Origin: Patescibacteria group bacterium
GTDB taxonomy: Bacteria > Patescibacteriota > Patescibacteriia > Buchananbacterales > UBA6539
Assembly: GCA_041662625.1 (NCBI GenBank)
Contig: JBAZSB010000002.1
Location: forward strand, 12,024 to 76,023
Reading direction: 5' to 3'
DNA length: 64,000 nucleotides
In this document: positions 2,939-36,703 of the stretch, in pieces
Numbering within the stretch: position 1 is the first letter of the stretch
Layout of the letters: each line of letters starts with the position of its first letter
Position numbers and translations under genes: made by a program
The notes under the pieces: model-generated
Seen by the model: only the letters and a program-made list of their open reading frames with translations
Database searches by the model: none
What the model was told of the DNA's origin: nothing

Positions 2939-3541
2939 TCAGACTTCAGCCCGCGTCGGATCCTTCCCTTGTGATCGCAACGGCGGCAACGTCGGTCCTC
3001 CTGAACCAGCCCTGGCCTTCACGGTTGGGTCACCAGCATGTGCCGGCGGCGGAGTGTCCAAAGCAGACGCAACCATTGGCGGCGGCGGGCTTCCGGCCTT
3101 CACCGGGGCACTGGCCATCGCGACCGTAGGCGCAGCCGCGGCTGACTGGAACGCTGAGCCAACCTGGAGCAGAGCCACTTCCTTCAGCGCGCTAAACCAC
3201 CGGAGTACCTGGCCTTTGGGAGAAACCAGATTCTCGTTCAGGTGTCGGATCAGCGTCTCAAAATCCACCGATAACGGCAGATTGGTCGGCAAAAATCCGA
3301 ATCCGTCTTTGGCCCACCCGGGCGGCTGCAACACTTCTGGTCGCCAGCTCTTCTTCGCCTTGGCGGTAGGGACCACTTGGCTCAGCTCGAAGATGGCGAG
3401 AACAAAGCCGCCACCTCTGACCACCAAGACTCCGTCTCCTGCCTGCTTCACTGCGGTAGGGGCCAAGGCTCCTACCTGGCCGTGGTATGTCGACTGCGAC
3501 AACAGTTCGACTGCTCCGTCTATTCGAATCGCATCCATCAT
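2939..3541 (-). CDS. Hypothetical protein with a Pro/Ala-rich C-terminal tail (GC-rich insert)
   Basis: 200-aa ORF with the strong RBS AGGAGGG 7 nt upstream of ATGATG. A globular ~130-aa N-terminus is followed by a low-complexity A/P-rich tail. The opposite-strand ORF 2916..3584 looks like a shadow ORF. Confidence 0.45.
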   Translation of the reverse strand: MMDAIRIDGAVELLSQSTYHGQVGALAPTAVKQAGDGVLVVRGGGFVLAIFELSQVVPTAKAKKSWRPEVLQPPGWAKDGFGFLPTNLPLSVDFETLIRHLNENLVSPKGQVLRWFSALKEVALLQVGSAFQSAAAAPTVAMASAPVKAGSPPPPMVASALDTPPPAHAGDPTVKARAGSGGPTLPPLRSQGKDPTRAEV

Positions 3542-3715
3542 GGTAAACGCCCTCCTATCCTTTCCTTGTTGTCTCCTTCACTAGGAACAACTCAATATTG
3601 GCAAATTTTTGCTTTTTTGTCAATCCCTAATTATATTGACGGCATGCCTAAAATATGTAAAAATTGAATTTATCCCTTGACGCAGCAGCTGGGAACAACC
3701 CATGGAGGGAGAAGT

Positions 3716-4144
3716 ATGCACCAACTCGCAGTAAAACAGCAACCGGATGCATTTGTGGTTGCCATCAACGAGGGAGCACTGAGTCATGGCGCTGAAGCCA
3801 GTGGCACCCTAAAGTGCGTCCAAGTCATGCAAGGCCGACGTCATGTCGACCGCGAAGCAGTGGCCGGCGCGATGTTTCTCTGTGAGGCGGATTTTCGCCC
3901 GCGCGAAACCTTCACGCCCGGAGATGGCACGCCGGTACCGGCAGAAAGTGAGGTCGTCTTTGTCGGCCTGGACAAAGTGCCCAAAAGGCGACTCCCGGAG
4001 AATCCGGGCTTCTATGATGTACATGGCGTCACTTTGTCGACCAATGGCCGAGTTGCCATTACCTTCGGCTCTGAGTCGATATTTGTCCCTGTACCCGCAC
4101 CGCGGAAAGTTTCCCAACATCCAAGCTCCGCAGTCCGAGTCTAG
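3716..4144 (+). CDS. Hypothetical protein (GC-rich insert), divergent from 2939..3541
   Basis: RBS GGAGGGAG lies upstream of the internal ATG at 3716 (MHQLAVKQQ...). A candidate TTGACG-N16-TAAAAA promoter lies upstream and a stem-loop plus T-run terminator follows. Confidence 0.45.
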   Translation: MHQLAVKQQPDAFVVAINEGALSHGAEASGTLKCVQVMQGRRHVDREAVAGAMFLCEADFRPRETFTPGDGTPVPAESEVVFVGLDKVPKRRLPENPGFYDVHGVTLSTNGRVAITFGSESIFVPVPAPRKVSQHPSSAVRV

Positions 4145-27540: not shown

Positions 27541-28842
27541 TTAGCCCATGTAGTTGTCGAGTTCTTCCCGACGCATCTGATCGAAGGCATACACTGCCGG
27601 ATTGGTCTGCCCCAGAATCTGCATCGCCGCTCCGATCGCGTTGCCTTCGGGCCAAGTCGTCAGATTCGGCGTCTGCGATGGCAGGTGTACGCTTGACCAA
27701 AGATCATCCGGAAATTGCTCGAGAGTCGCTGGGACCGAAATCACTGGCCAAGGACTGTGAGCCGCGACGATCGGACCCAGACCATTGGACCGGCCGGCCT
27801 TGACCACGATGACGCCACCTTGCGGATAGTCATAGAACAGCCGTTCCAGACGCTGCAGCCCCTCAACCGGACTCTTGTGGCCGGAAGCCACGATCCGTTC
27901 AACGGTGACTCCAGGCAACTGGGGAACTTTTGGTGCTTCATCCTTGTCGGACCCAAGCCAGACAACCAGCGCCTGTCTCGGGAGCACCAAGCGTTCGGCC
28001 ATCTGGGCGACGTAACGGTAGTTCTCTTCGACTTGGCCAAGGACAGCAGCGCCACCATCGCGGAACACCTGCTTATCGAGCGGTTTGCCATTTTCCCAAA
28101 GACGCCAACTGTCGTTGTCCACGACATCGGAAACTCGGAGTTCGCTGTCGGCTTCGATCTTGATGTCAAGCCATGTGAGGCCAAAGTTCGCCCAGGCCCG
28201 CTCAAGGATCAAAGACACCCGGCGAACCAATTGATCAAGCTTGGCCATATCCGCCAGATCGGTGATGACCCCACTAGCAGGAATCTTGGCAAACGGGCTA
28301 ACCCGATGTCGACTCTCACCCTCGCCCTCTTCATGCCAGATCGGCTTCTTGGGCAAGGCAAGATCCCAGGTATCCTTGAAGGGATCAAGGATCAACGGAT
28401 CGTCGCAGGGTAGTGATAGGCCTTTCCAATCTCGACCAGTCGTCTTGAGGAAGAACTCAACCAACAACCGGTGAAAACGGTACGGCTTGGTTGGATCAGC
28501 CGTTCGAAGCTGGGGATTGCGCATCAGGAAACTGCCAACTCCCAGCCGTCGGGCGACAATCTCCAGCAGCAACATCAGCGACCGCAGCGCGACAAACTCC
28601 GTTTCGGAAATCTGCTCCACGTAAGCCACCGGCACGTCGCAAGTCCGAAGAAGTTCGAAAACGCGGCAAGTGGTTATGGTAGCACATTGGGCTTTGGACC
28701 CAAACTTCTGGGTAAAACTCGGGTCATCATGGGCAGTGATGTCCGAACCATTCCTGACGATCACCAGATCGTCTCGGCCTTCTACTGCGAAGATACCCTT
28801 GGTTTTGCCCTTGGCTATCTGCTTACCTAGTGTATACTCCAT
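27541..28842 (-). CDS. purC-purE: Bifunctional SAICAR synthetase (PurC) - N5-CAIR mutase/AIR carboxylase (PurE) fusion, PAICS-like
   Basis: The N-terminal half has PurC blocks (GKTKGIF, DDLVIVRNGSDITAHDD, WLDIKIE). The C-terminal half has PurE blocks (VVWLGSDKDE, IVASGHKSP similar to SAHRTP, AGRSNGLGPIVAAHSPWPVISVP). GC ~60%. Confidence 0.75.
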   Translation of the reverse strand: MEYTLGKQIAKGKTKGIFAVEGRDDLVIVRNGSDITAHDDPSFTQKFGSKAQCATITTCRVFELLRTCDVPVAYVEQISETEFVALRSLMLLLEIVARRLGVGSFLMRNPQLRTADPTKPYRFHRLLVEFFLKTTGRDWKGLSLPCDDPLILDPFKDTWDLALPKKPIWHEEGEGESRHRVSPFAKIPASGVITDLADMAKLDQLVRRVSLILERAWANFGLTWLDIKIEADSELRVSDVVDNDSWRLWENGKPLDKQVFRDGGAAVLGQVEENYRYVAQMAERLVLPRQALVVWLGSDKDEAPKVPQLPGVTVERIVASGHKSPVEGLQRLERLFYDYPQGGVIVVKAGRSNGLGPIVAAHSPWPVISVPATLEQFPDDLWSSVHLPSQTPNLTTWPEGNAIGAAMQILGQTNPAVYAFDQMRREELDNYMG

Positions 28843-28863
28843 GGCATTCCTTTCTCCGACTTT

Positions 28864-29397
28864 TCAGCCGATCTGTTCCTGGTCTTCCGAATCTTCCGGT
28901 CGACCTTCCGATCTCTGACCACAACGGTCACAACCGTCACACTGGTGACCCACGGCAAACCGTTTCAACTCATCGAGCATCTCCAGCACTCCCGCTGCGG
29001 GTTGACCGGATTTCTCGAGTACGGCATCAGCGACCTTGATCGAACATTTGACGCGTAGCGCCACGGCAATGGCGTCGCTGGGCCGCGAATCAACCTTGAC
29101 GACCCCGCCTGCGGTTTTCAACTCGATATAGCCCAGGAAAATCCCGTTACCAGTGAGTTGGTTGATGCCAACTTCCAAAACCTCAGCATCCAAGCCAGCC
29201 AAGATGTTCACGATTAAGTCGTGGGTCATCGGCCTTATAGGCACTTGACCAGCCAAGGCCATACCGATGGCCACAGCTTCGGCTGGACCAATCATGACTG
29301 GTAAGATCAGAGCCGCCGCTTCACTGTGTAACAACACTGTTGGTCGACCTTGGCTATCCTGGACTACAGCCAACGCATGGAGTTCTTGTCTATCCAT
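28864..29397 (-). CDS. Bifunctional-nuclease (BFN/DUF151) family protein with a Cys-rich acidic C-terminal tail
   Basis: The PSDAIAVALR motif and domain length match BFN; the C-terminus carries CDGCDRCGQ. Confidence 0.55.
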   Translation of the reverse strand: MDRQELHALAVVQDSQGRPTVLLHSEAAALILPVMIGPAEAVAIGMALAGQVPIRPMTHDLIVNILAGLDAEVLEVGINQLTGNGIFLGYIELKTAGGVVKVDSRPSDAIAVALRVKCSIKVADAVLEKSGQPAAGVLEMLDELKRFAVGHQCDGCDRCGQRSEGRPEDSEDQEQIG

Positions 29398-29476
29398 CGC
29401 ATTCTCTCCTTATGTGGAGTAAGGGTGGGCCAGCCCGGCAAAGGACCGGCCCACACCAGTTTCAGGTTGGAGAACT

Positions 29477-30745
29477 CTACTCCGGCACTTTCCCGTCGGG
29501 ATAAAGGACCGAGTGGCCCTTGCCCTGCGAGATCAGCGACCGGTACGTTTCGAGTGCCGTTTGAACGGCCGGATCAGTCAGGTCCAGTGTCTGGCGTTTC
29601 TCGGCGGCCATATAGGCGGCCTGACAGAGCCTGGTGATTTCCAAGCCGTATTCCCAGTTCAACAGTCCGTCATGGCCTTCACGGAAAGCATCACGGGCAT
29701 CGACCTGCTCATCAACGTAACCGTAAAGGTCGGGTTCGTTGGGCTGAACAGCCAGAAGGCCACGCGAAGCCGTCGACTTCTCCAAGGCCCCCTCGGCATC
29801 GGTCACGGCTTCGGCCGCGGCATCGCCGATGAAGACCTCAAGCGACGAACGCAAGGAGTTGACCTCCAAAGCATAGCCCGGGCCCATTCCTTCCATCGAG
29901 AGTCGGAGGCCCTGCTTGTCGTACATCCAAGAAGTGGCAAACTGAGCCACAACACGCTGCCGGGTCTCCGGATTCTCAAAGGTGACCAGACCGGTGGCGA
30001 AGTCTTCGGCCGGAACCAACGCGTAGTCAACGCCCATCCTCTTCAGGAGTTGGGCTCGATACTTGGGCTGGCCCCACTTCAGAAGCAGGGTATCGGCCCC
30101 AATACTAACCGGCCTGAGGAATCTCAGATCCTTGCCGACCGGTGTCAAAAGACGCCAAAGCACCGCGATGGTGTGGCAAGCCATGTCCGAAAGGACACCG
30201 CCACCTTGCCGGGTTGCATCCCAGAACCAACCCTCGTGGGGTCCAGAATGTTCTTCGCCGCCACGAGCCAAAACCAACGGCCCCATCTTTCCTTGGACGC
30301 GAGCCAGACCTTTCAGCCCTGCTTTGATGGCTTTCATGTGGATCTGGTTCTCGAAGTACGAGGTCGGGCAGCCGAGAGTCTTGGCCAGCTCAACCATACG
30401 GCGAGCCTCGGTAATGGTTCGGCCCAACGGCTTTTCGCAGATCAGCCCTTTGGGTTTCTTACCCAGTCTCGTCGCCGCATCGACGACCTGTTCCATCAAT
30501 TCAACGCGGAACGGATTCGGGGCGAAATTGGCAATCACGTCGCAATGCTCGACAAGATCGGCGACGCTTTTGTATACTACGCAATCAATTTCGCCGGTAG
30601 CGGTGGCCTTAGCGGCCAGTTGTTCCGCACCCTTCAGGGCGTGGACACCGCCGAATTCCAAACCAGGTACCAACTGGTTGGCGGCCTGCTGGAAATTGGC
30701 AACAAATCCAGCACCCATCGATCCTAGTCTGAGGATTTCCTTCAT
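29477..30745 (-). CDS. Gfo/Idh/MocA-family NAD(P)-dependent oxidoreductase
   Basis: N-terminal Rossmann fold, the EKP motif (LICEKPLGRTITEARRMVELAK) and length 422 aa; RBS AAAGGAGAG. Confidence 0.75.
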   Translation of the reverse strand: MKEILRLGSMGAGFVANFQQAANQLVPGLEFGGVHALKGAEQLAAKATATGEIDCVVYKSVADLVEHCDVIANFAPNPFRVELMEQVVDAATRLGKKPKGLICEKPLGRTITEARRMVELAKTLGCPTSYFENQIHMKAIKAGLKGLARVQGKMGPLVLARGGEEHSGPHEGWFWDATRQGGGVLSDMACHTIAVLWRLLTPVGKDLRFLRPVSIGADTLLLKWGQPKYRAQLLKRMGVDYALVPAEDFATGLVTFENPETRQRVVAQFATSWMYDKQGLRLSMEGMGPGYALEVNSLRSSLEVFIGDAAAEAVTDAEGALEKSTASRGLLAVQPNEPDLYGYVDEQVDARDAFREGHDGLLNWEYGLEITRLCQAAYMAAEKRQTLDLTDPAVQTALETYRSLISQGKGHSVLYPDGKVPE

Positions 30746-30873
30746 CAGTCTCTCCTTTCAATCAAACACTGTCTCCAATCTCTCTCCCGCCCTGAAACAG
30801 ATCAGGCCGGAACACTTCTTTTTGTTTCTTTGCCGTTTCTCCTTCCTTATCTTTTGTAACTTCCCTCGCTTGG

Positions 30874-30946
30874 TTGTGAAAAAACAAGTCTTTCCCTCCC
30901 TTTGGAAAAGACTATTAAAACTGGGTTTAATTTAACAAAAAAAAGC
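30874..30946. promoter_or_regulatory. Conserved ~73-bp upstream element, copy 1 (second copy at 34510..34590), containing the palindrome AGTCTTTCC-N9-GGAAAAGACT
   Basis: ttgtgaaaaaacaagtctttccctccctttggaaaagactattaaaactgggtttaatttaacaaaaaaaagc compared with ttgtcaaaaaaacaaagtcttcccctcacgttggaaaagacttttccctacaaaactggctttaatttaacaaaaaaaagc. Both lie 5' of minus-strand operons. Confidence 0.6.
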
Positions 30947-30982
30947 TATAAAGTCAATCACATGATGCTAATCTACAATTTA

Positions 30983-31014
30983 TGCGAATGATAATAATAT
31001 TCGCAACATTCGCA
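30983..31014. promoter_or_regulatory. Perfect inverted repeat TGCGAAT-N9-ATTCGCA plus a third ATTCGCA half-site (candidate operator)
   Basis: tgcgaat gataataat attcgca ac attcgca; AT-rich and lies ~240 bp upstream of the oxidoreductase start. Confidence 0.5.
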
Positions 31015-31226
31015 TACTACTCGCATCCATTATCATTATATTAAAAAAAGGACCAGACAACCTTCTTCATCTCGCCGAATCCGCTTTCAAGCGGAGAAGG
31101 CGGGACTTGGTCGTTATGGTCCCTTGGATCTCAATAGTGTACAAAACCCTCCTTAGTCTCGCCGTAGTCCGAAGGACGTAGGCGGATTAGTCTCGCCGTA
31201 GTCCGAAGGACAAAGGCGGACTTGGG

Positions 31227-32924
31227 TTAGTGGCGAAAGCCCCGGCACTTCTTGTCTGGCATCAGGTACAGCGTCATACCGGCCGCAGTCAGTTCCTCCT
31301 GAACTTTTCCGTCGTTGACCGAACCGGACGAAGCGAATAAGACGGTGATTCCTGCTTCGTGCAACACCAGACCAGCATCACCGAAAGGCAAGAAGCTATC
31401 CGAATAGGCAGCGGCTTCCACCAACCCTACTTTTTCCTCGTCCTGTCTGTTGGCTTCACCGCGCTCATAGCCTCGAACTGCCAGCTCTGCCGCACCGACG
31501 CGATCCATCCGACCGCATCCGTTGCCTTCCAGTTCGTAGACGATCATATCTCTGACTTGCCTCTGCCTCACAATGGTGATGGTATTGCTCTTGGCCTGAG
31601 AGCCGATTGCCCAACCAGCCTTGAGACAGCCTTCCAATTCTGGTCGGCGAGGTCCGATGATTTGCAGATCCGGATCGTCAAACGACGGCACAAACTGGCT
31701 CGGCGGATAATGAGTGTAGTCCCCGCCACCGACATGGGTAAAGATCGGGGTATTATCCATAGGTAGATTGCCAGCCAGCGCCGGATTCAACATCACACGG
31801 CACTTGCCTGTCTTTTTGCGCGCCAGTATTTCGATCGCATTTTCGTCAGCGCTGGGCGCAAACACAGCATCCAGAATCCGGCGCTGTCCTTTCGGCATAT
31901 GGTAATACAGCAGCATGTCAGCGATCTCGGCAGTGATATGGAAGTTGAACAGCAGTACGCCGCCATGAATCGCCAATTCATCGCCTTCGATCATGCTTCT
32001 GACCGCCTCGACGATGGCATCTCGTCCTTTGCCTTTGACAATCCCGGCACCGCAGATATTGACGTGCTTGTCCGCCAAGGCAAAACTGTGTGTGTCTGCC
32101 GGAAATACTGCCGCCAGCCGTGTCATGGTTTCGGTCAGCGTATGGAGATCATCCAAGTTGTTGCAGCTTGGACTCATGCCTTCAACTCCGACGAAGCGGC
32201 TCGGCGCCAACTCCCAATCACCACCACCGGTATACAAGGCGGCTGGCACTTGGTGAGGATTGGGTCCATAAGCGAGCGACAAAACCCGTTCGCCGCTGAT
32301 GCCGGCGAACTGTCCGTCGCTGATGAAATCTGCTGCTGTCAGGTAATGTCTGGCAATCATTGCCAGCGCTTTGCCGGCGAGGCGCTTTCGGGTCTCGGGT
32401 AAGACATCGCCATCGTTTTTCACCATTTCTTCCCAGACCTTGGGAATGTCAGATTCATCGACAACGACGATGCGCAAACGCTTTGAACCCATCGCTGCTT
32501 GCGCCGGTCCACCGACGTCAACCTTTTCCAGCACCTCCTCAAACGATAGCGCTCCACTGTCGATCGCGGCCTGGAGATCGTAGAATCCGCCGACGAATAT
32601 CTCGCAAAGTGGCCCGCCGAGTTCACGCAGCTCATCAAGGTGTTTGGGTTTGGCTGGTTTGGCACACAGTGCACCAAGTACCTTGGGATGCAGCGATACT
32701 ACGCCGTGGTCGAACATCGGCGGCGAGCCAATGGTCGCATAGTTGTTACAGGTAATACCACTCCCTTCGAGGAAACAGGTTGTGCCGTCCGACCCATAGA
32801 GGGTCAATCCCAATGATTCATGCAGATAGCGAGCAAATGCTGCAATCCCTTCTGTCTTGTCAGCAACGCTTAAAAACGCTGCCCTGACAATTCCTGAATC
32901 TGCCGTACTCACTTTATCACTCAT
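31227..32924 (-). CDS. purH: Bifunctional AICAR transformylase / IMP cyclohydrolase
   Basis: N-terminal MGS-like block FLSVADKT...GSDGT...LHPKV and the C-terminus ...SDSFLPFGDAG...VLFASSGSVNDG...RGFRH, which matches the PurH C-terminus (ASDAFFPFRD...QPGGSIRD...RHFRH). Confidence 0.8.
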   Translation of the reverse strand: MSDKVSTADSGIVRAAFLSVADKTEGIAAFARYLHESLGLTLYGSDGTTCFLEGSGITCNNYATIGSPPMFDHGVVSLHPKVLGALCAKPAKPKHLDELRELGGPLCEIFVGGFYDLQAAIDSGALSFEEVLEKVDVGGPAQAAMGSKRLRIVVVDESDIPKVWEEMVKNDGDVLPETRKRLAGKALAMIARHYLTAADFISDGQFAGISGERVLSLAYGPNPHQVPAALYTGGGDWELAPSRFVGVEGMSPSCNNLDDLHTLTETMTRLAAVFPADTHSFALADKHVNICGAGIVKGKGRDAIVEAVRSMIEGDELAIHGGVLLFNFHITAEIADMLLYYHMPKGQRRILDAVFAPSADENAIEILARKKTGKCRVMLNPALAGNLPMDNTPIFTHVGGGDYTHYPPSQFVPSFDDPDLQIIGPRRPELEGCLKAGWAIGSQAKSNTITIVRQRQVRDMIVYELEGNGCGRMDRVGAAELAVRGYERGEANRQDEEKVGLVEAAAYSDSFLPFGDAGLVLHEAGITVLFASSGSVNDGKVQEELTAAGMTLYLMPDKKCRGFRH

Positions 32925-32954
32925 ACTCGTCTCTCTCCTTTTCTCTCTCTGTTC

Positions 32955-34481
32955 CTAGGCCACAATGGCCAAGGGTTTCATTGCCTTCAATCCATTCTTC
33001 ATTTCTCTTCGCGCATCCTTGATCGCATCACCAACATAGGCTGCCGGATGCTTCAGTAGGTAAATCTCGCGTGGAGTTAATCCTTTCCAGACGCGCCGGA
33101 ACTTAGGATCAGCCCCGTCAGACTCCATATATTGCTCGGCTGCAACGCAAAGATTGGGCGCACCAGCTTTGACCCGGGCCACTAGTTCCTTCTTGACGAA
33201 GGTGTGAGCGCCTTCAAAGCCTTGCCGCTGCAATGCGTTGTGGAGTAATTCCGCTAACGATGCTGGTCCGAATATCTTGACCCAGTGCAGGCAGCGTTCT
33301 TCGTTGAACGCCAGAGCGCCCATCTGCCGATGCACGCTGTACAACTCCTGGGTAAAGTACTCAAGGGCTTCGATGAAAGTGCGCATCACCGAGGACCACC
33401 GCAAATCGCGTTGGAAGTTGCTCCCGCGCGTCAGCCACGGTCTTAAGGCACAACTCAACACGATTGCATCGGCGCCAATGGCGTTCTCAGCCCGAATGGG
33501 GTTGGCTTCCTTGGCTGCTCCCGCCGAAGAGGTCGAGGTAATACCGACATCCTTTGAAGGAATGACCTCGCCGAGTTCAGGCATGTGCAAGATCCGGAGA
33601 TCATCACACAGACTCATCATCGGTCCGCTGATCGCGACGAGCTCGCTGTAAAAACGAACCGTGTGATGAATAGGCGGAACCTGACTAGCACCTCTGGCTA
33701 CCGGCAAGTCAAGAATATTCATCAGCGTCCGTTCGGCTTTTTTGGGAATACCGACGGCGCGCTGCGATGCGGCGGTACCGACGAAACCACAGAACTTGCC
33801 CGGCACCGCCAAGGCAGCCCGTTGCAGTTCCACAGCGCAGTCAATGTATTGCTGATGGCCACAAGCCAGATAAAATCCGACTGTACCTGGTATGGCCGGC
33901 TGCAAGTGGGTGCGAAACATCTCCCGCATCTTCAGGTTTTCACCAATCTTGGCTCGCCAAACTTCATCGAGTGCCATCATCTTTGGCCAAATAATCAGAC
34001 TGAACACAACTCGAAGCTGCAAGGCATATGCCGTCGAAATCGTGTCATAGGAAGTTGCCGTATAGTGCAACCACTTCCAAAGTCCTTTGGGAAGATAACG
34101 GCGCATCAATGCCAGAAGCGCCAGGATATCGTGGCCGATTCCTTTGGTCTTCTTCTTTCTGTCTCCGTATTCGAGGCGATCCTGTTTTGTTGTGGTGACA
34201 TTCTTGAGGACGTAGAGCAAACGCTCTTTCGTCAGCAATTTGGCGTCCTTTTCCGGCATGATTCCGATAATGGCTAACGCCACCATCCAGAACCATTCCA
34301 CCAGGACCAACCAAAGTGCCCATTGGTCATAGCCGAGGTACGGAACCAGTTCCGGTTGCTGTTCTGCATATCTGTGATCCATATGCATCACCAGCACCCG
34401 CCGTCGATCCTTGGCTAAAACCGCGAAATACGCAATCGCGGCCGCTAACATCTCTCGGGCTTTATCAATAGTCATACGCAC
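32955..34481 (-). CDS. Adenylosuccinate-lyase-like protein (fumarate-lyase superfamily), divergent with a hydrophobic N-terminal extension
   Basis: A fumarate-lyase signature-like block TSTSSAGAAKEANPIRAEN (consensus GSSxMPxKxNP), length 508 aa and operon context with purH/purC-E; RBS AAGGAGG. Confidence 0.5.
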   Translation of the reverse strand: MRMTIDKAREMLAAAIAYFAVLAKDRRRVLVMHMDHRYAEQQPELVPYLGYDQWALWLVLVEWFWMVALAIIGIMPEKDAKLLTKERLLYVLKNVTTTKQDRLEYGDRKKKTKGIGHDILALLALMRRYLPKGLWKWLHYTATSYDTISTAYALQLRVVFSLIIWPKMMALDEVWRAKIGENLKMREMFRTHLQPAIPGTVGFYLACGHQQYIDCAVELQRAALAVPGKFCGFVGTAASQRAVGIPKKAERTLMNILDLPVARGASQVPPIHHTVRFYSELVAISGPMMSLCDDLRILHMPELGEVIPSKDVGITSTSSAGAAKEANPIRAENAIGADAIVLSCALRPWLTRGSNFQRDLRWSSVMRTFIEALEYFTQELYSVHRQMGALAFNEERCLHWVKIFGPASLAELLHNALQRQGFEGAHTFVKKELVARVKAGAPNLCVAAEQYMESDGADPKFRRVWKGLTPREIYLLKHPAAYVGDAIKDARREMKNGLKAMKPLAIVA

Positions 34482-34509
34482 ACCTCCTTAGTTCCAACTC
34501 CAACCCTAA

Positions 34510-34590
34510 TTGTCAAAAAAACAAAGTCTTCCCCTCACGTTGGAAAAGACTTTTCCCTACAAAACTGGCTTTAATTTAACAAAAAAAAGC
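34510..34590. promoter_or_regulatory. Conserved ~73-bp upstream element, copy 2
   Basis: See 30874..30946; lies ~30-110 bp upstream of the purB-like start. Confidence 0.6.
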
Positions 34591-34608
34591 CTGACCGTCA
34601 AATGAAGA

Positions 34609-35229
34609 CTAATCAAGCCTGATGGCATTCAATACTTGCCAAATTTGCTCCGGCGTGGTTTCGGGCACAACGGCAAACTCGATGATTCGCACTTGGCCCG
34701 CCCGATAGTGCTGGATTAAAGGCAAGGTTTGTTGGTAGTAAATCCTAAGCCTCTCCGCAATGGCAGCAGGTGTGTTGTCGTCTCGGCCGCGGCGTTCATC
34801 ATGAGCATCAAGGGCAATCCTGGCAGCAACATCATCTGGTGAACACTCCAGTACCACCACCAGTTTGATTGTGGCAAAAGATTCAACCATGCGCGCCTGA
34901 AAGACGTTGCGGGGCAGACCGTTAAGAACTACCCAGTCATCAGCTCCAACGGCCGACTCAAGGTAATGCCTTAGGATTTTTCCCGCCACGGGAAATTCAT
35001 CGTCGGCAAGCAACCTGCTAGCAGCAAAAACTTGCCCTATTACTTCATGATCATGAGCATCCAAAAAAGGCATGACGTCCGGTTGTTTCTGAGCAGTTCT
35101 CAGCTGGTCCCCGAAGTCAAAATGACAGCAACGTCTGCCGCCAAAGCCCTGCTCTTGGATTAACTTACCCAGCGGTGATTTACCACTGCCAGTTGGACCT
35201 ACTACTAAAAGAGCTTTGTGTCGACGCAT
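34609..35229 (-). CDS. Adenylate-kinase-family nucleoside monophosphate kinase
   Basis: P-loop GPTGSGKS, NMP-binding and LID-like motifs (LNGLPRN, RRGRDDN). Start placed at the internal ATG that has RBS GGAGGAAGG; the ORF opens at 35307. Confidence 0.6.
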   Translation of the reverse strand: MRRHKALLVVGPTGSGKSPLGKLIQEQGFGGRRCCHFDFGDQLRTAQKQPDVMPFLDAHDHEVIGQVFAASRLLADDEFPVAGKILRHYLESAVGADDWVVLNGLPRNVFQARMVESFATIKLVVVLECSPDDVAARIALDAHDERRGRDDNTPAAIAERLRIYYQQTLPLIQHYRAGQVRIIEFAVVPETTPEQIWQVLNAIRLD

Positions 35230-35353
35230 TGTCCTTCCTCCGTTGTTGGGACAAACTTTTCGCCTCAAGATTAGATTAAAATTAACAGAAAATAACCAAG
35301 GCGTCAATAAAAGTCAATTGACAAAAAATAGCAACAAAACTATGCTACTAATA

Positions 35354-35552
35354 GCTGGGCGCACCGACCTTTGGTGAAACTTGTATCGGCTTCGGCCTGT
35401 CAACTGTTTGTCACCCATAACTGGTGCGCCCAACCCGAAAACTTACTGCCCTTTGTCTGGCTCACTACCAGGGCACGATCCCTGTCCTCCCCATGCAGGC
35501 CACGAATCTATGCAATGTAGTTCACCGCTACTCGTGGCCTGCTCTTTTTTTT
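35354..35552 (+). ncRNA. Candidate structured small RNA with intrinsic terminator (family unassigned)
   Basis: GC-rich segment in an intergenic region: a 9-bp closing stem GGGCGCACC/GGUGCGCCC encloses a UUCG-tetraloop hairpin (GGCUUCGGCC); further hairpins follow (CUGGCUCACUACCAG, CAGGGCACGAUCCCUG); it ends in an 11-bp stem GCAGGCCACGA/TCGTGGCCTGC plus T8. Confidence 0.35.
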
Positions 35553-35608
35553 GATTGAAAAAACTCCTCTCTTCTGCTAAGCTTAGATAGTTAAATGTTA
35601 AATGTTAA

Positions 35609-36703
35609 TTGTTAATTGTTATTATGTCGTTTAGTATCGGCATCGTCGGCCTGCCTAACGTCGGCAAATCAACACTTTTCAAAGCCCTGACCAAAAAACA
35701 GGTTGATGCTTCTAATTATCCTTTTTGCACCATTGACCCAAACATTGGAGTGGTGGCCGTGCCTGATGAACGAATTGATAAATTGTCAGTGATGTCAAAA
35801 TCAGCCAAAACGATTTATACCACCATTGAATTTGTTGACATCGCCGGCCTAGTTAAGGATGCTCATAAAGGTGAAGGGCTGGGTAACCAATTTTTAGCCA
35901 ACATCCGGGAAGTTGATGCCATTGTTCAAGTCGTCCGGCAGTTTTCCGATAAAAATGTCATTCATGTCGCCGGCAAGGTGGACCCCGAGTCGGACAAAGA
36001 AACAATTAGTCTGGAATTAATTTTTGCTGATTTACAAACTTTGGGAAAAAGAATCAGTAAAAACCAAAAAGATTTACATGCCAATTTAAAAGAAGCAAAA
36101 GAGATTCAGCCGGTTTTGGAAAAATTAAAAACCGGCTTTAACGCCGGCAAGCTGGCTTCGGAAATCATTACTGATGAAAAAGAAAAATTATTAATCCGCG
36201 ACTTGAATCTTTTGACCATCAAACCAATGATTTATGTTTTGAATGTGGATGAAGACAAAGTTTATCCCGCCTCCGCTAAAGCTACGGCGGGCAAGCAAGA
36301 AACAGATTACATTACCATTTCGGCAAAAATTGAATCGGAATTAGCCGAACTGCCCGAGGTCGAAGCTAAAGAAATGCTCAAAGAACTCAAGCTGGAATCT
36401 TCAGGTTTAGATAAACTGATCAAAAAATCATACGAAATTTTAGGCTTGATTACTTTTTTGACTACCGGTCCGACCGAATCACGCGCTTGGACAATCAAAA
36501 AAGGGACAAAAGCGCCCCAGGCCGCCGGCGTGATCCACACTGATTTTGAAAAAAACTTTATCCGCGCTGAAGTGATTAACTGGCAAAAATTGTTGGAAGT
36601 TGGCTCTGAAGCTAAGGCCAAGGAATTAGGCTTAATCCGGATTGAAGGCAAAGATTACGTGATGCAAGACGGCGACACGGTTTATTTTAGAACTAACGCC
36701 TAA
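35609..36703 (+). CDS. ychF: Ribosome-binding ATPase YchF (Obg-like GTPase family)
   Basis: G1 GIVGLPNVGKSTLF, G3 DIAGLV, NxxD, and a C-terminal TGS domain (RAWTI..GTKAPQAAGVIHTDFEKNFIRAEV); 364 aa. Confidence 0.9.
   Translation: MLIVIMSFSIGIVGLPNVGKSTLFKALTKKQVDASNYPFCTIDPNIGVVAVPDERIDKLSVMSKSAKTIYTTIEFVDIAGLVKDAHKGEGLGNQFLANIREVDAIVQVVRQFSDKNVIHVAGKVDPESDKETISLELIFADLQTLGKRISKNQKDLHANLKEAKEIQPVLEKLKTGFNAGKLASEIITDEKEKLLIRDLNLLTIKPMIYVLNVDEDKVYPASAKATAGKQETDYITISAKIESELAELPEVEAKEMLKELKLESSGLDKLIKKSYEILGLITFLTTGPTESRAWTIKKGTKAPQAAGVIHTDFEKNFIRAEVINWQKLLEVGSEAKAKELGLIRIEGKDYVMQDGDTVYFRTNA

What the first reader, a model, noticed from the sequence alone, without database searches (positions are those of the whole stretch)
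35354..35552. Candidate ~200-nt structured small RNA with a strong intrinsic terminator between the purine island and ychF
A GC-rich, ORF-free segment folds into a long closing helix (GGGCGCACC...GGUGCGCCC) around a UUCG-tetraloop hairpin and several further hairpins. It ends in an 11-bp perfect stem (GCAGGCCACGA/UCGUGGCCUGC) followed by U8, a textbook Rho-independent terminator on the + strand. It is followed by four tandem 7-mers (TTAAATG/TTAATTG) directly abutting the ychF start codon. It could be an independent sRNA (6S- or SRP-like in size, though the SRP GNRA/AGCAGC motifs were not seen) or a terminator-based attenuator for ychF.
Basis: seen in the sequence. Interest (0 to 1): 0.5.

Follow-up and report, generated by a model that had tools for sequence, protein, structure and literature searches.

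The report
Orphan small RNA gene upstream of ychF
The segment is a real, self-contained gene for a roughly 200-nucleotide non-coding RNA with its own promoter and terminator, found only in a few closely related Patescibacteria; it matches no known RNA family and its role is still unknown.

Summary
Window 35353-35552 (+) has a 10-11 bp closing helix, a UUCG hairpin, and an 11-bp perfect stem followed by U8.

The unit is conserved upstream of ychF, in the same orientation, in three Patescibacteria lineages (window, L091/L313, L089). Promoter, 5' end, an unpaired C-rich linker and a terminator are kept in all three. Helix interiors drift at about the neutral rate.

At least five close relatives lack it at this site. 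All of these genomes examined except the L092 group and L104 keep a separate ychF promoter (TTGAAA-17-TAnnCT) right after the terminator. No conserved antiterminator exists. It is therefore a stand-alone sRNA gene, not a ychF attenuator.

Rfam (4227 models), ARAGORN and phage, plasmid and viral searches gave nothing. It is not 6S, SRP, tmRNA or RNase P.

Its unpaired regions are strongly G-depleted and carry several CCC(C) runs. This resembles RsaE/RoxS-type sRNAs that mask Shine-Dalgarno sites, but no target could be shown.

With only three sequences, covariation is not significant. Verdict: a new, narrowly distributed orphan sRNA of modest interest.

The parts
35318..35346 (+). Promoter of the RNA gene: -35 TTGACA (35318-35323), 17-bp spacer, -10 TATGCT (35341-35346)
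   Evidence: Promoter scan gives 10 of 12 matches. The same TTGACA-17-TATGCT/TATACT sits at the same distance from the conserved 5' end in L091 and L089.
35353..35552 (+). Predicted ~200-nt non-coding RNA (start inferred 7 nt after the -10; end at the U-run)
   Evidence: Homologues are L091:3707-3911 and L089:2362-2579 (nhmmer E 1e-9 to 1e-18; cmsearch). Fold z-scores are -3.8 to -5.3. There is no conserved ORF. G-U pairs fit the + strand only.
35356..35432 (+). 5' domain: closing helix P1 (35356-35366 with 35422-35432) around a variable irregular hairpin with the UUCG-capped tip (35388-35397)
   Evidence: Inverted repeat I2 and MFE fold. The P1 5' strand is invariant in the three sequences. 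The interior is 58-88 nt and differs between them. In L091, P1 has two uncompensated mismatches but gains two outer pairs.
35427..35457 (+). Most conserved segment after the 5' end: CGCCCANCCCRAAAA..ACUGCYCUYUGYC. From 35433 onward it is predicted unpaired (C-rich linker, candidate seed)
   Evidence: It is conserved in all three sequences, while four-fold degenerate sites of the adjacent ychF are only 45-57% identical. It is unpaired in the MFE folds of L091 and L089; in the window MFE short stretches (CGAAAA, GCC) are paired. C-run unpaired probability reaches 0.9.
35469..35484 (+). Middle GC hairpin H3 (CAGGG / CCCUG)
   Evidence: Each homologue has a GC-rich hairpin at the same relative place with a different sequence: 5 bp in the window, 10 bp in L091 and 8 bp in L089.
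35495..35552 (+). Intrinsic terminator: 11-bp stem (35495-35505 / 35532-35542), 26-nt loop with a small inner hairpin, then UC + U8 (35545-35552)
   Evidence: Inverted repeat I1 is 100% complementary. Terminator hairpins followed by U-runs are also present in L091 and L089, with changed stem sequences. No conserved competitor pairing was found.
35555..35583 (+). Separate ychF promoter-like site: TTGAAA (35555-35560), 17 bp, TAAGCT (35578-35583)
   Evidence: Read from the sequence. The same TTGAAA-17-TAAACT/TATCCT/TATTCT/TACACT is found upstream of ychF in L085, L087, L091, L089 and L317, including genomes without the RNA. It falls below the scan's threshold, so it is an inference.
35590..35621 (+). 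ychF 5' UTR with 4.6 tandem heptamers (GTTAAAT), no Shine-Dalgarno; not part of the RNA
   Evidence: TRF result. ychF ATG at 35624.
35289..35317 (-). Divergent promoter of the adenylate-kinase-like gene / purine cluster (TTGACT-17-TATTTT), back to back with the RNA promoter
   Evidence: Promoter scan. It lies between the RNA and the pur genes, so the RNA region is not in their 5' UTR.

Best explanation
This is a stand-alone gene for a ~200-nt non-coding small RNA, restricted to a small clade of Patescibacteria (Buchananbacteria-like MAGs).

It is transcribed from its own near-consensus sigma-70-type promoter and ended by a constitutive intrinsic terminator. It is independent of the downstream ychF, which has its own promoter.

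The selected parts are the 5' end with helix P1 and a ~30-nt unpaired C-rich linker. The other hairpins act as variable scaffolds.

Most likely mechanism (inferred, not shown): it acts in trans as an Hfq-independent riboregulator. Its accessible, G-free C-rich stretches (CCCANCCC, CUGCCCUUUG, CCUCCCC) would pair with G-rich ribosome-binding sites and block translation, as RsaE/RoxS do in Firmicutes.

In this genome such Shine-Dalgarno sites occur mainly in the GC-rich gene blocks, including the divergently transcribed purine cluster next door.
For: **Shown**
- Promoter TTGACA-17-TATGCT and terminator bracket a 200-nt, 54% GC segment.
- Three distinct homologues share the same promoter, 5' end, linker and terminator position, always upstream of ychF.
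- The 5' 15 nt are 14-15/15 identical and the linker is about 80-90% identical. Four-fold sites of the adjacent ychF are 45-57% identical.
- All three sequences fold far better than shuffles.
- There is no conserved ORF.
- G-U pairs support the + strand.
- The ychF promoter persists in RNA-less relatives.
- No antiterminator was found.

**Supporting the mechanism by analogy only**
- Predicted unpaired positions hold only 4-7 G against 32-49 C, with 2-7 accessible C-runs per RNA.
- RsaE/RoxS use repeated C-rich motifs to bind Shine-Dalgarno regions (PMC6158497).
- Strong GGAGG/AAGGAG sites in the window sit mostly in GC-rich blocks such as the pur cluster.
Against: - No expression data are available.
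- Only three distinct sequences exist, so covariation is not significant: 2 pairs changed on both sides, and 82 of 500 shuffles did as well.
- In L091, P1 carries two uncompensated mismatches.
- No target stands out. The best seed-mRNA duplex in the window is no better than with shuffled seeds, 37 of 40 of which were at least as good.
- Complement searches are at chance level.
- The ranking of Shine-Dalgarno-bearing genes simply reflects base composition.
- The gene is missing from the closest relative (YchF 93% identical by the global alignment; 90% by BLASTP), so it is dispensable.
Confidence: 0.5

Rival explanations
1. It is a cis-acting leader of ychF (riboswitch or attenuator). Transcripts from the upstream promoter either stop at the terminator or read through into ychF in response to a signal sensed by the structured 5' domain.
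For: - It is always directly upstream of ychF and co-oriented with it, in 3 of 3 cases.
- The architecture is a conserved helix-closed domain, then conserved junction sequence, then a terminator.
- The terminator lies only 72 nt from the ATG.
Against: - ychF has its own conserved promoter-like TTGAAA-17-TAnnCT between the terminator and the ATG. That site is also present in relatives lacking the RNA.
- No upstream segment competes with the terminator 5' arm in a conserved way. The best alternative duplexes are -5 to -10 kcal/mol at non-homologous places, against hairpins of about -18 to -20 kcal/mol in the two homologues where the hairpin was folded alone.
- It is absent from close relatives with the same ychF.
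- No Rfam riboswitch match was found.
Confidence: 0.15
2. It is a protein-binding or sponge RNA (functionally like 6S, CsrB or Y RNA) rather than a base-pairing regulator. The conserved P1 and linker would form a protein docking site.
For: - The invariant 5' strand of P1 and the conserved linker contrast with freely varying peripheral hairpins.
- No convincing mRNA target was found.
Against: - It has no 6S-type rod or central bubble.
- It has no repeated GGA-type motifs; unpaired regions are almost G-free.
- No Rfam hit was found.
- No partner gene is linked in the loci seen.
Confidence: 0.12
3. It is a decaying remnant with no present function, for example the leader or end of a lost gene or mobile element that still carries a promoter and a terminator. 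It would have spread among relatives by recombination at the ychF 5' end.
For: - The distribution within the clade is patchy.
- The locus is recombination-prone. L089 carries an orphan 39-nt ychF 5' fragment closer to the window allele than to its own gene.
- L103 has a serine-recombinase element at the ychF 5' end.
- The unit is flanked by similar ATTGA(C)AAAAAA motifs.
Against: - The 5' end and linker are conserved well above the four-fold-site level.
- Promoter and terminator are retained in all three copies, with changed but still pairing stems.
- It is single-copy in the window.
- Only one true hit was found in JGI metagenomes.
- No phage, plasmid or viral match was found.
- No terminal inverted repeats were found.
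Confidence: 0.12
4. The functional strand is the minus strand: a structured 5' UTR (riboswitch) of the adenylate-kinase-like / purB / purH operon.
For: - The minus strand folds equally well, with z -5.1.
- There is a weak IMES-4 match on the minus strand, 29 bits against a threshold of 48.
- The purine genes lie on that side.
Against: - The pur-side promoter (TTGACT-17-TATTTT, 35317-35289) lies between the RNA and the operon and reads away from it. L091 and L089 have the equivalent arrangement.
- On the minus strand the U-run precedes the hairpin.
- Several G-U pairs would become A-C mismatches.
- The IMES-4 hit is not reproduced in the homologues.
Confidence: 0.03
5. It is a very divergent copy of a housekeeping RNA (6S, SRP, tmRNA or RNase P).
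For: Its size is near that of 6S. CPR genomes have unusual RNAs that models may miss (own knowledge).
Against: - No match was found even at E up to 10 with lax filters.
- ARAGORN found no tmRNA.
- The signature motifs and folds are absent.
- It is missing from close relatives at this locus, and no copy was found in the ~4-6 kb flanks that were searched. The rest of those genomes was not available.
Confidence: 0.05

Closest known systems
RsaE / RoxS (Firmicutes C-rich sRNAs, Rfam RF01820)
   Same: - It is a stand-alone gene with its own promoter and an intrinsic terminator.
- It carries several accessible C-rich, G-free stretches, including a CCCUUUG-type motif.
- The host lineage is without a known Hfq dependence (own knowledge).
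- RsaE/RoxS pair with G-rich Shine-Dalgarno regions (PMC6158497).
   Different: - It is twice as long (~200 nt against ~100 nt).
- It has a large helix-closed 5' domain that RsaE lacks.
- There is no Rfam match.
- There is no duplicated 10-nt motif.
- No target has been shown.
6S RNA (RF00013 and related families)
   Same: Similar length, and highly structured.
   Different: - The ends do not pair.
- There is no extended rod with a central bubble. Instead there are three separate domains.
- There is no model hit.
- It is not universally present among relatives.
Terminator-type riboswitches and leaders
   Same: It lies upstream of and co-oriented with a gene. It has a helix-closed domain with conserved junction sequence followed by a terminator.
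   Different: - A conserved promoter lies between the terminator and the gene.
- There is no conserved antiterminator.
- The phylogenetic range is very narrow.
IMES-4 RNA motif (RF02037)
   Same: A weak minus-strand similarity: a hairpin followed by a GGGAGGA-containing loop.
   Different: It scores 29 bits against a gathering score of 48 and lies on the wrong strand. It is not seen in L089 or L091. This is a chance match.

Membership tests
6S RNA | Match to the Rfam 6S covariance models | tested here: not met
   No hit at the gathering score or at E up to 10 in the window, L089 or L091.
6S RNA | 5' and 3' ends pair into one long irregular rod with a large central bubble | tested here: not met
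   All three MFE folds give a 5' hairpin domain, an unpaired linker, a middle hairpin and a terminator hairpin.
Bacterial SRP RNA | Helix 8 motif (GNRA-capped helix with conserved symmetric and asymmetric loops) detected by the SRP models | tested here: not met
   No SRP model hit. The apical loop is UUCG in the window and is not conserved in the homologues.
tmRNA / tRNA | tRNA-like acceptor and T-arm, tag reading frame | tested here: not met
   ARAGORN finds nothing in the 64-kb window.
Terminator-type riboswitch or attenuator of ychF | The element lies inside the 5' UTR of the regulated gene, with no promoter in between | tested here: not met
   TTGAAA-17-TAAGCT lies between the terminator and the ATG. 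The same promoter-like site is conserved in RNA-less relatives. This is a sequence inference, not a mapped start site.
Terminator-type riboswitch or attenuator of ychF | Conserved, mutually exclusive antiterminator pairing | tested here: not met
   The best competitors for the terminator 5' arm are weak (-5 to -10 kcal/mol) and lie at non-homologous positions.
Terminator-type riboswitch or attenuator of ychF | Ligand- or signal-dependent read-through | not testable with these tools
   This needs in-line probing or transcription assays.
Intrinsic (Rho-independent) terminator | GC-rich stem directly followed by a U-run on the transcribed strand | tested here: met
   An 11-bp perfect stem followed by UC and U8. 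L091 and L089 have equivalent hairpins followed by U-runs.
RsaE/RoxS-type C-rich sRNA | Sequence and structure membership (Rfam RF01820) | tested here: not met
   No hit.
RsaE/RoxS-type C-rich sRNA | Accessible C-rich motifs in unpaired regions | tested here: met
   There are 2-7 C-runs with unpaired probability above 0.6 per RNA. Unpaired positions hold 4-7 G against 32-49 C.
RsaE/RoxS-type C-rich sRNA | Pairing with Shine-Dalgarno regions of defined targets | tested here: inconclusive
   Duplex predictions are no better than shuffled seeds. Only 64 kb of the genome was available.
MITE or repeat element | Multiple copies, terminal inverted repeats | tested here: not met
   It is single-copy in the window. 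One true hit was found in JGI metagenomes. No terminal inverted repeats beyond the A/T runs were found.

The most novel reading that the evidence does not exclude
The RNA is the founding member of a CPR-specific class of regulatory RNA. In a genome whose core genes mostly lack Shine-Dalgarno sites, a C-rich anti-SD RNA would selectively silence the SD-led, GC-rich (probably acquired) gene blocks, such as the neighbouring purine cluster. Alternatively, it is a ligand-sensing element that couples purine status to the ribosome-associated ATPase YchF.
Probability: 0.1. Interest if true: 0.65.

Novelty: new member of a known kind. Interest (0 to 1): 0.35.

Why it matters
My literature searches here found no described regulatory RNAs for Patescibacteria (CPR), which are mostly uncultured and have very small genomes.

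This is a clean, conserved, promoter-to-terminator sRNA gene with a clearly selected unpaired seed-like segment. It is a concrete candidate that could be tested in metatranscriptomes from the same samples.

Its value is limited by three things. The family is tiny (three lineages), the gene is dispensable (lost in close relatives), and no target or partner could be identified.

Tried and rejected
- **Rfam.** Gathering mode on the whole window and on eight related loci gave nothing. E-value mode on the element in all three genomes gave only inconsistent chance hits: IMES-4, isrD, snoRNAs.
- **ARAGORN.** No tRNA or tmRNA.
- **YchF-anchored scan of GTDB genomes.** 80 loci, best 62% identity, no RNA homologue by nhmmer or cmsearch.
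- **Twelve look-ups of contigs encoding the window's own YchF and adenylate-kinase-like proteins and ten YchF homologues.** The RNA was found with P0004 and P0009 only. It was absent with P0005, P0010, P0012, P0017, P0014, P0020 and P0016. P0018 had no upstream sequence.
- **Metagenome scan with the invariant 20-mer.** 11 hits, of which only L313 is real, and it is identical to L091.
- **Viral scans.** Two runs gave chance hits only.
- **blastn against phages and plasmids.** No match.
- **Leader-peptide idea.** The candidate MLLIAGRTDLW overlaps the -10 element. It was rejected because L089 has no start codon and the ATG lies inside the -10.
- **Minus-strand small ORF or type I toxin idea.** Rejected because of stops and the lack of conservation.
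- **Three-sequence full-length covariance model.** A 5'-domain model (R2) found nothing new in 669 kb.
- **Target prediction in the window.** At chance level.
- **Literature searches for CPR sRNAs or ychF-linked sRNAs.** Nothing relevant.

Full report
**1. Observation**

- TGGGCGCACC (35356-35365) pairs perfectly with GGTGCGCCCA (35423-35432).
- A GGC-UUCG-GCC hairpin sits at 35388-35397.
- GCAGGCCACGA (35495-35505) pairs perfectly with TCGTGGCCTGC (35532-35542) across a 26-nt loop. It is followed by TC and T8 (35545-35552).
- 4.6 tandem heptamers (35590-35621) run up to the ychF ATG at 35624.

The + strand RNA folds at -73.7 kcal/mol against -52.9 +/- 4.2 for shuffles, z -4.9. The minus strand folds equally well, z -5.1, so folding energy alone does not pick the strand.

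**2.

A near-consensus promoter, TTGACA-17-TATGCT, lies at 35318-35346.

Its -35 hexamer is directly back to back with the -35 of a minus-strand promoter (TTGACT-17-TATTTT, 35317-35289). That promoter serves the divergent adenylate-kinase-like gene (34609-35229), which is followed by purB- and purH-like genes. The structured segment is therefore outside the purine operon's 5' UTR.

**3. Organism and relatives**

YchF homologues place the window in Patescibacteria, close to MAGs labelled Buchananbacteria. I fetched the ychF neighbourhood from relatives between 77% and 93% YchF identity.

The RNA was found in three distinct lineages:

| Lineage | Coordinates | YchF identity to window (BLASTP) |
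|---|---|---|
| Window | 35353-35552 | 100% |
| L091 (L313 from JGI is identical) | 3707-3911 | 90% |
| L089 | 2362-2579 | 83% |

In all three it lies just upstream of ychF and in the same orientation. All three have TTGACA-17-TATGCT/TATACT at the same distance from an invariant 5' end, AGCYGGGCGCACCGA. All three also have a GC hairpin followed by a U-run at the 3' end.

It is absent from the same intergenic site in:

- L085/86 (the closest relative: 93% YchF identity by the global alignment, 90% by BLASTP)
- L087/88
- L092-L102
- L104
- L317

It is also absent from the 4 kb upstream of ychF in L103, where a serine-recombinase element abuts ychF. Searches cover these absences.

Wider searches added nothing:

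- One scan of JGI metagenomes with the invariant 20-mer returned 11 hits, of which only L313 is real.
- Viral, phage and plasmid collections gave only chance hits or nothing.
- A covariance model of the 5' domain found nothing further in 669 kb of ychF-linked loci from Patescibacteria and Firmicutes.
- There is a single copy in the window.

**4. Is it under selection?**

Four-fold degenerate sites of the adjacent ychF are only 45-57% identical among the three genomes. Against that background:

- the first 15 nt of the RNA are 14-15/15 identical;
- the segment CGCCCANCCCRAAAA..ACUGCYCUYUGYC is about 80-90% identical;
- the rest of the RNA is about as diverged as neutral sites, with overall identity of 56-65%.

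Each homologue still folds into the same layout, with z-scores of -3.8 to -5.3:

1. a P1-closed 5' domain with an interior of variable length (58-88 nt);
2. an unpaired linker;
3. a GC hairpin of different sequence;
4. a C-rich spacer;
5. a terminator hairpin whose stem sequence has changed but still pairs.

Formal pair counting on the model-guided alignment gives 90% of cells paired, but only 2 pairs changed on both sides. That is not distinguishable from shuffles, 82 of 500 of which did as well. Three sequences are too few. L091 even has two uncompensated mismatches in P1, offset by two extra outer pairs.

Several G-U pairs would be A-C mismatches on the other strand. Together with the promoter and U-run orientation, this points to the + strand.

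No reading frame is conserved, and stops occur in every frame in L091 and L089.

**5. Known families**

- Rfam release 15 gives no hit at gathering scores anywhere in the 64 kb or in eight related loci.
- With permissive E-values, the three homologues give different, nonsensical weak hits. The minus-strand IMES-4 hit (29 bits against 48) is not reproduced.
- ARAGORN finds no tRNA or tmRNA.
- The fold has no 6S-type rod and no SRP helix 8.

**6. Leader or stand-alone gene?**

Right after the U-run there is TTGAAA (35555-35560), 17 bp, then TAAGCT (35578-35583).

The same TTGAAA-17-TAAACT/TATCCT/TATTCT/TACACT precedes ychF in L085, L087, L091, L089 and L317. This includes genomes whose whole intergenic region is only ~160 nt and has no RNA. 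ychF therefore appears to have its own promoter, and the RNA unit is an extra ~235-bp module placed in front of it.

No upstream segment offers a conserved alternative pairing to the terminator's 5' arm. This argues for constitutive termination and against an attenuator or riboswitch. Some read-through into ychF cannot be excluded.

**7. How it may work**

In all three RNAs the predicted unpaired positions are almost free of G (4-7 G) and rich in C (32-49 C). Each RNA has 2-7 accessible CCC(C) runs, including the conserved CCCANCCC and GCCCUUUG in the linker.

This is the hallmark of RsaE/RoxS-type sRNAs of Firmicutes, whose repeated C-rich motifs pair with G-rich Shine-Dalgarno regions (PMC6158497).

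In this window, strong GGAGG/AAGGAG sites are found mostly in front of genes in GC-rich blocks, including all six genes of the adjacent purine cluster. Most AT-rich core genes, ychF included, have none. A C-rich anti-SD RNA would thus act selectively.

This is inference only:

- duplex predictions against the window's start regions are no better than with shuffled seeds;
- complement searches are at chance level;
- the ranking of SD-bearing genes follows from composition.

**8. Verdict**

The finding is a real, conserved, stand-alone small RNA gene that belongs to no described family. It is confined to a few related Patescibacteria and is dispensable.

The 'independent sRNA' reading is supported, while the 6S/SRP and attenuator readings are not. 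Function remains inferred. Interest is modest.

Noticed in passing
window 35590-35621; L091:3955-4000; L089:2655-2682: The ychF 5' UTR consists of tandem heptamers directly before the ATG, with no Shine-Dalgarno site. The window has GTTAAAT x4.6. L091 has CCTAGTG x2 plus CCTAAAT/CCTAACT. L089 has CATAATT x2 plus CCTAATT. The periodicity is conserved while the sequence differs.
   Followed up: partly
L089:2683-2721: An orphan 39-nt copy of the ychF 5' end lies between the RNA and the real ychF. It matches the window allele at 35/39 positions but L089's own gene at only 30/39. L089's resident ychF start and the 115 nt before it resemble L318. This looks like a recombination scar at the ychF 5' end.
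   Followed up: partly
L103:2131-4972: A large serine recombinase (Resolvase, Recombinase and Zn-ribbon domains) with an HTH_17 gene ends 8 nt before a 5'-truncated ychF of 323 aa. This suggests a mobile element integrated into the ychF 5' end.
   Followed up: no
window 27541-35229, also genes starting at 3541, 3716, 14176, 25537, 26492, 42336: Genes in GC-rich blocks (50-56% GC against ~40% elsewhere) have strong GGAGG/AAGGAG ribosome-binding sites. Most AT-rich core genes have none. This may mean two translation-initiation regimes, or acquired DNA.
   Followed up: partly
window 35313-35322: The -35 hexamers of the RNA promoter and of the divergent purine-side promoter are directly back to back inside the palindrome GTCAATTGAC. 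L091 has the same arrangement. Promoter competition is possible.
   Followed up: no
L089:2090-2330: The intergenic region carries repeated GC hairpin elements (CCCGCCGAAGC...GCGTAGGCGGG) and a duplicated GTCAATAAAATTG motif flanking a ~110-nt insertion. These look like REP or MITE elements.
   Followed up: no
L091:3590-3660 and L089:2140-2185, minus strand: The purB leader shares a conserved segment (GGAAAAGAC..CAAAACTGGCTTTA.TTTA.CAAAA) between L091 and L089. It has hairpin and U-run potential on the minus strand and may be a separate cis element of the purine operon.
   Followed up: no
window 1-64000: There is no tRNA gene and no Rfam family at the gathering score in the entire 64 kb.
   Followed up: yes
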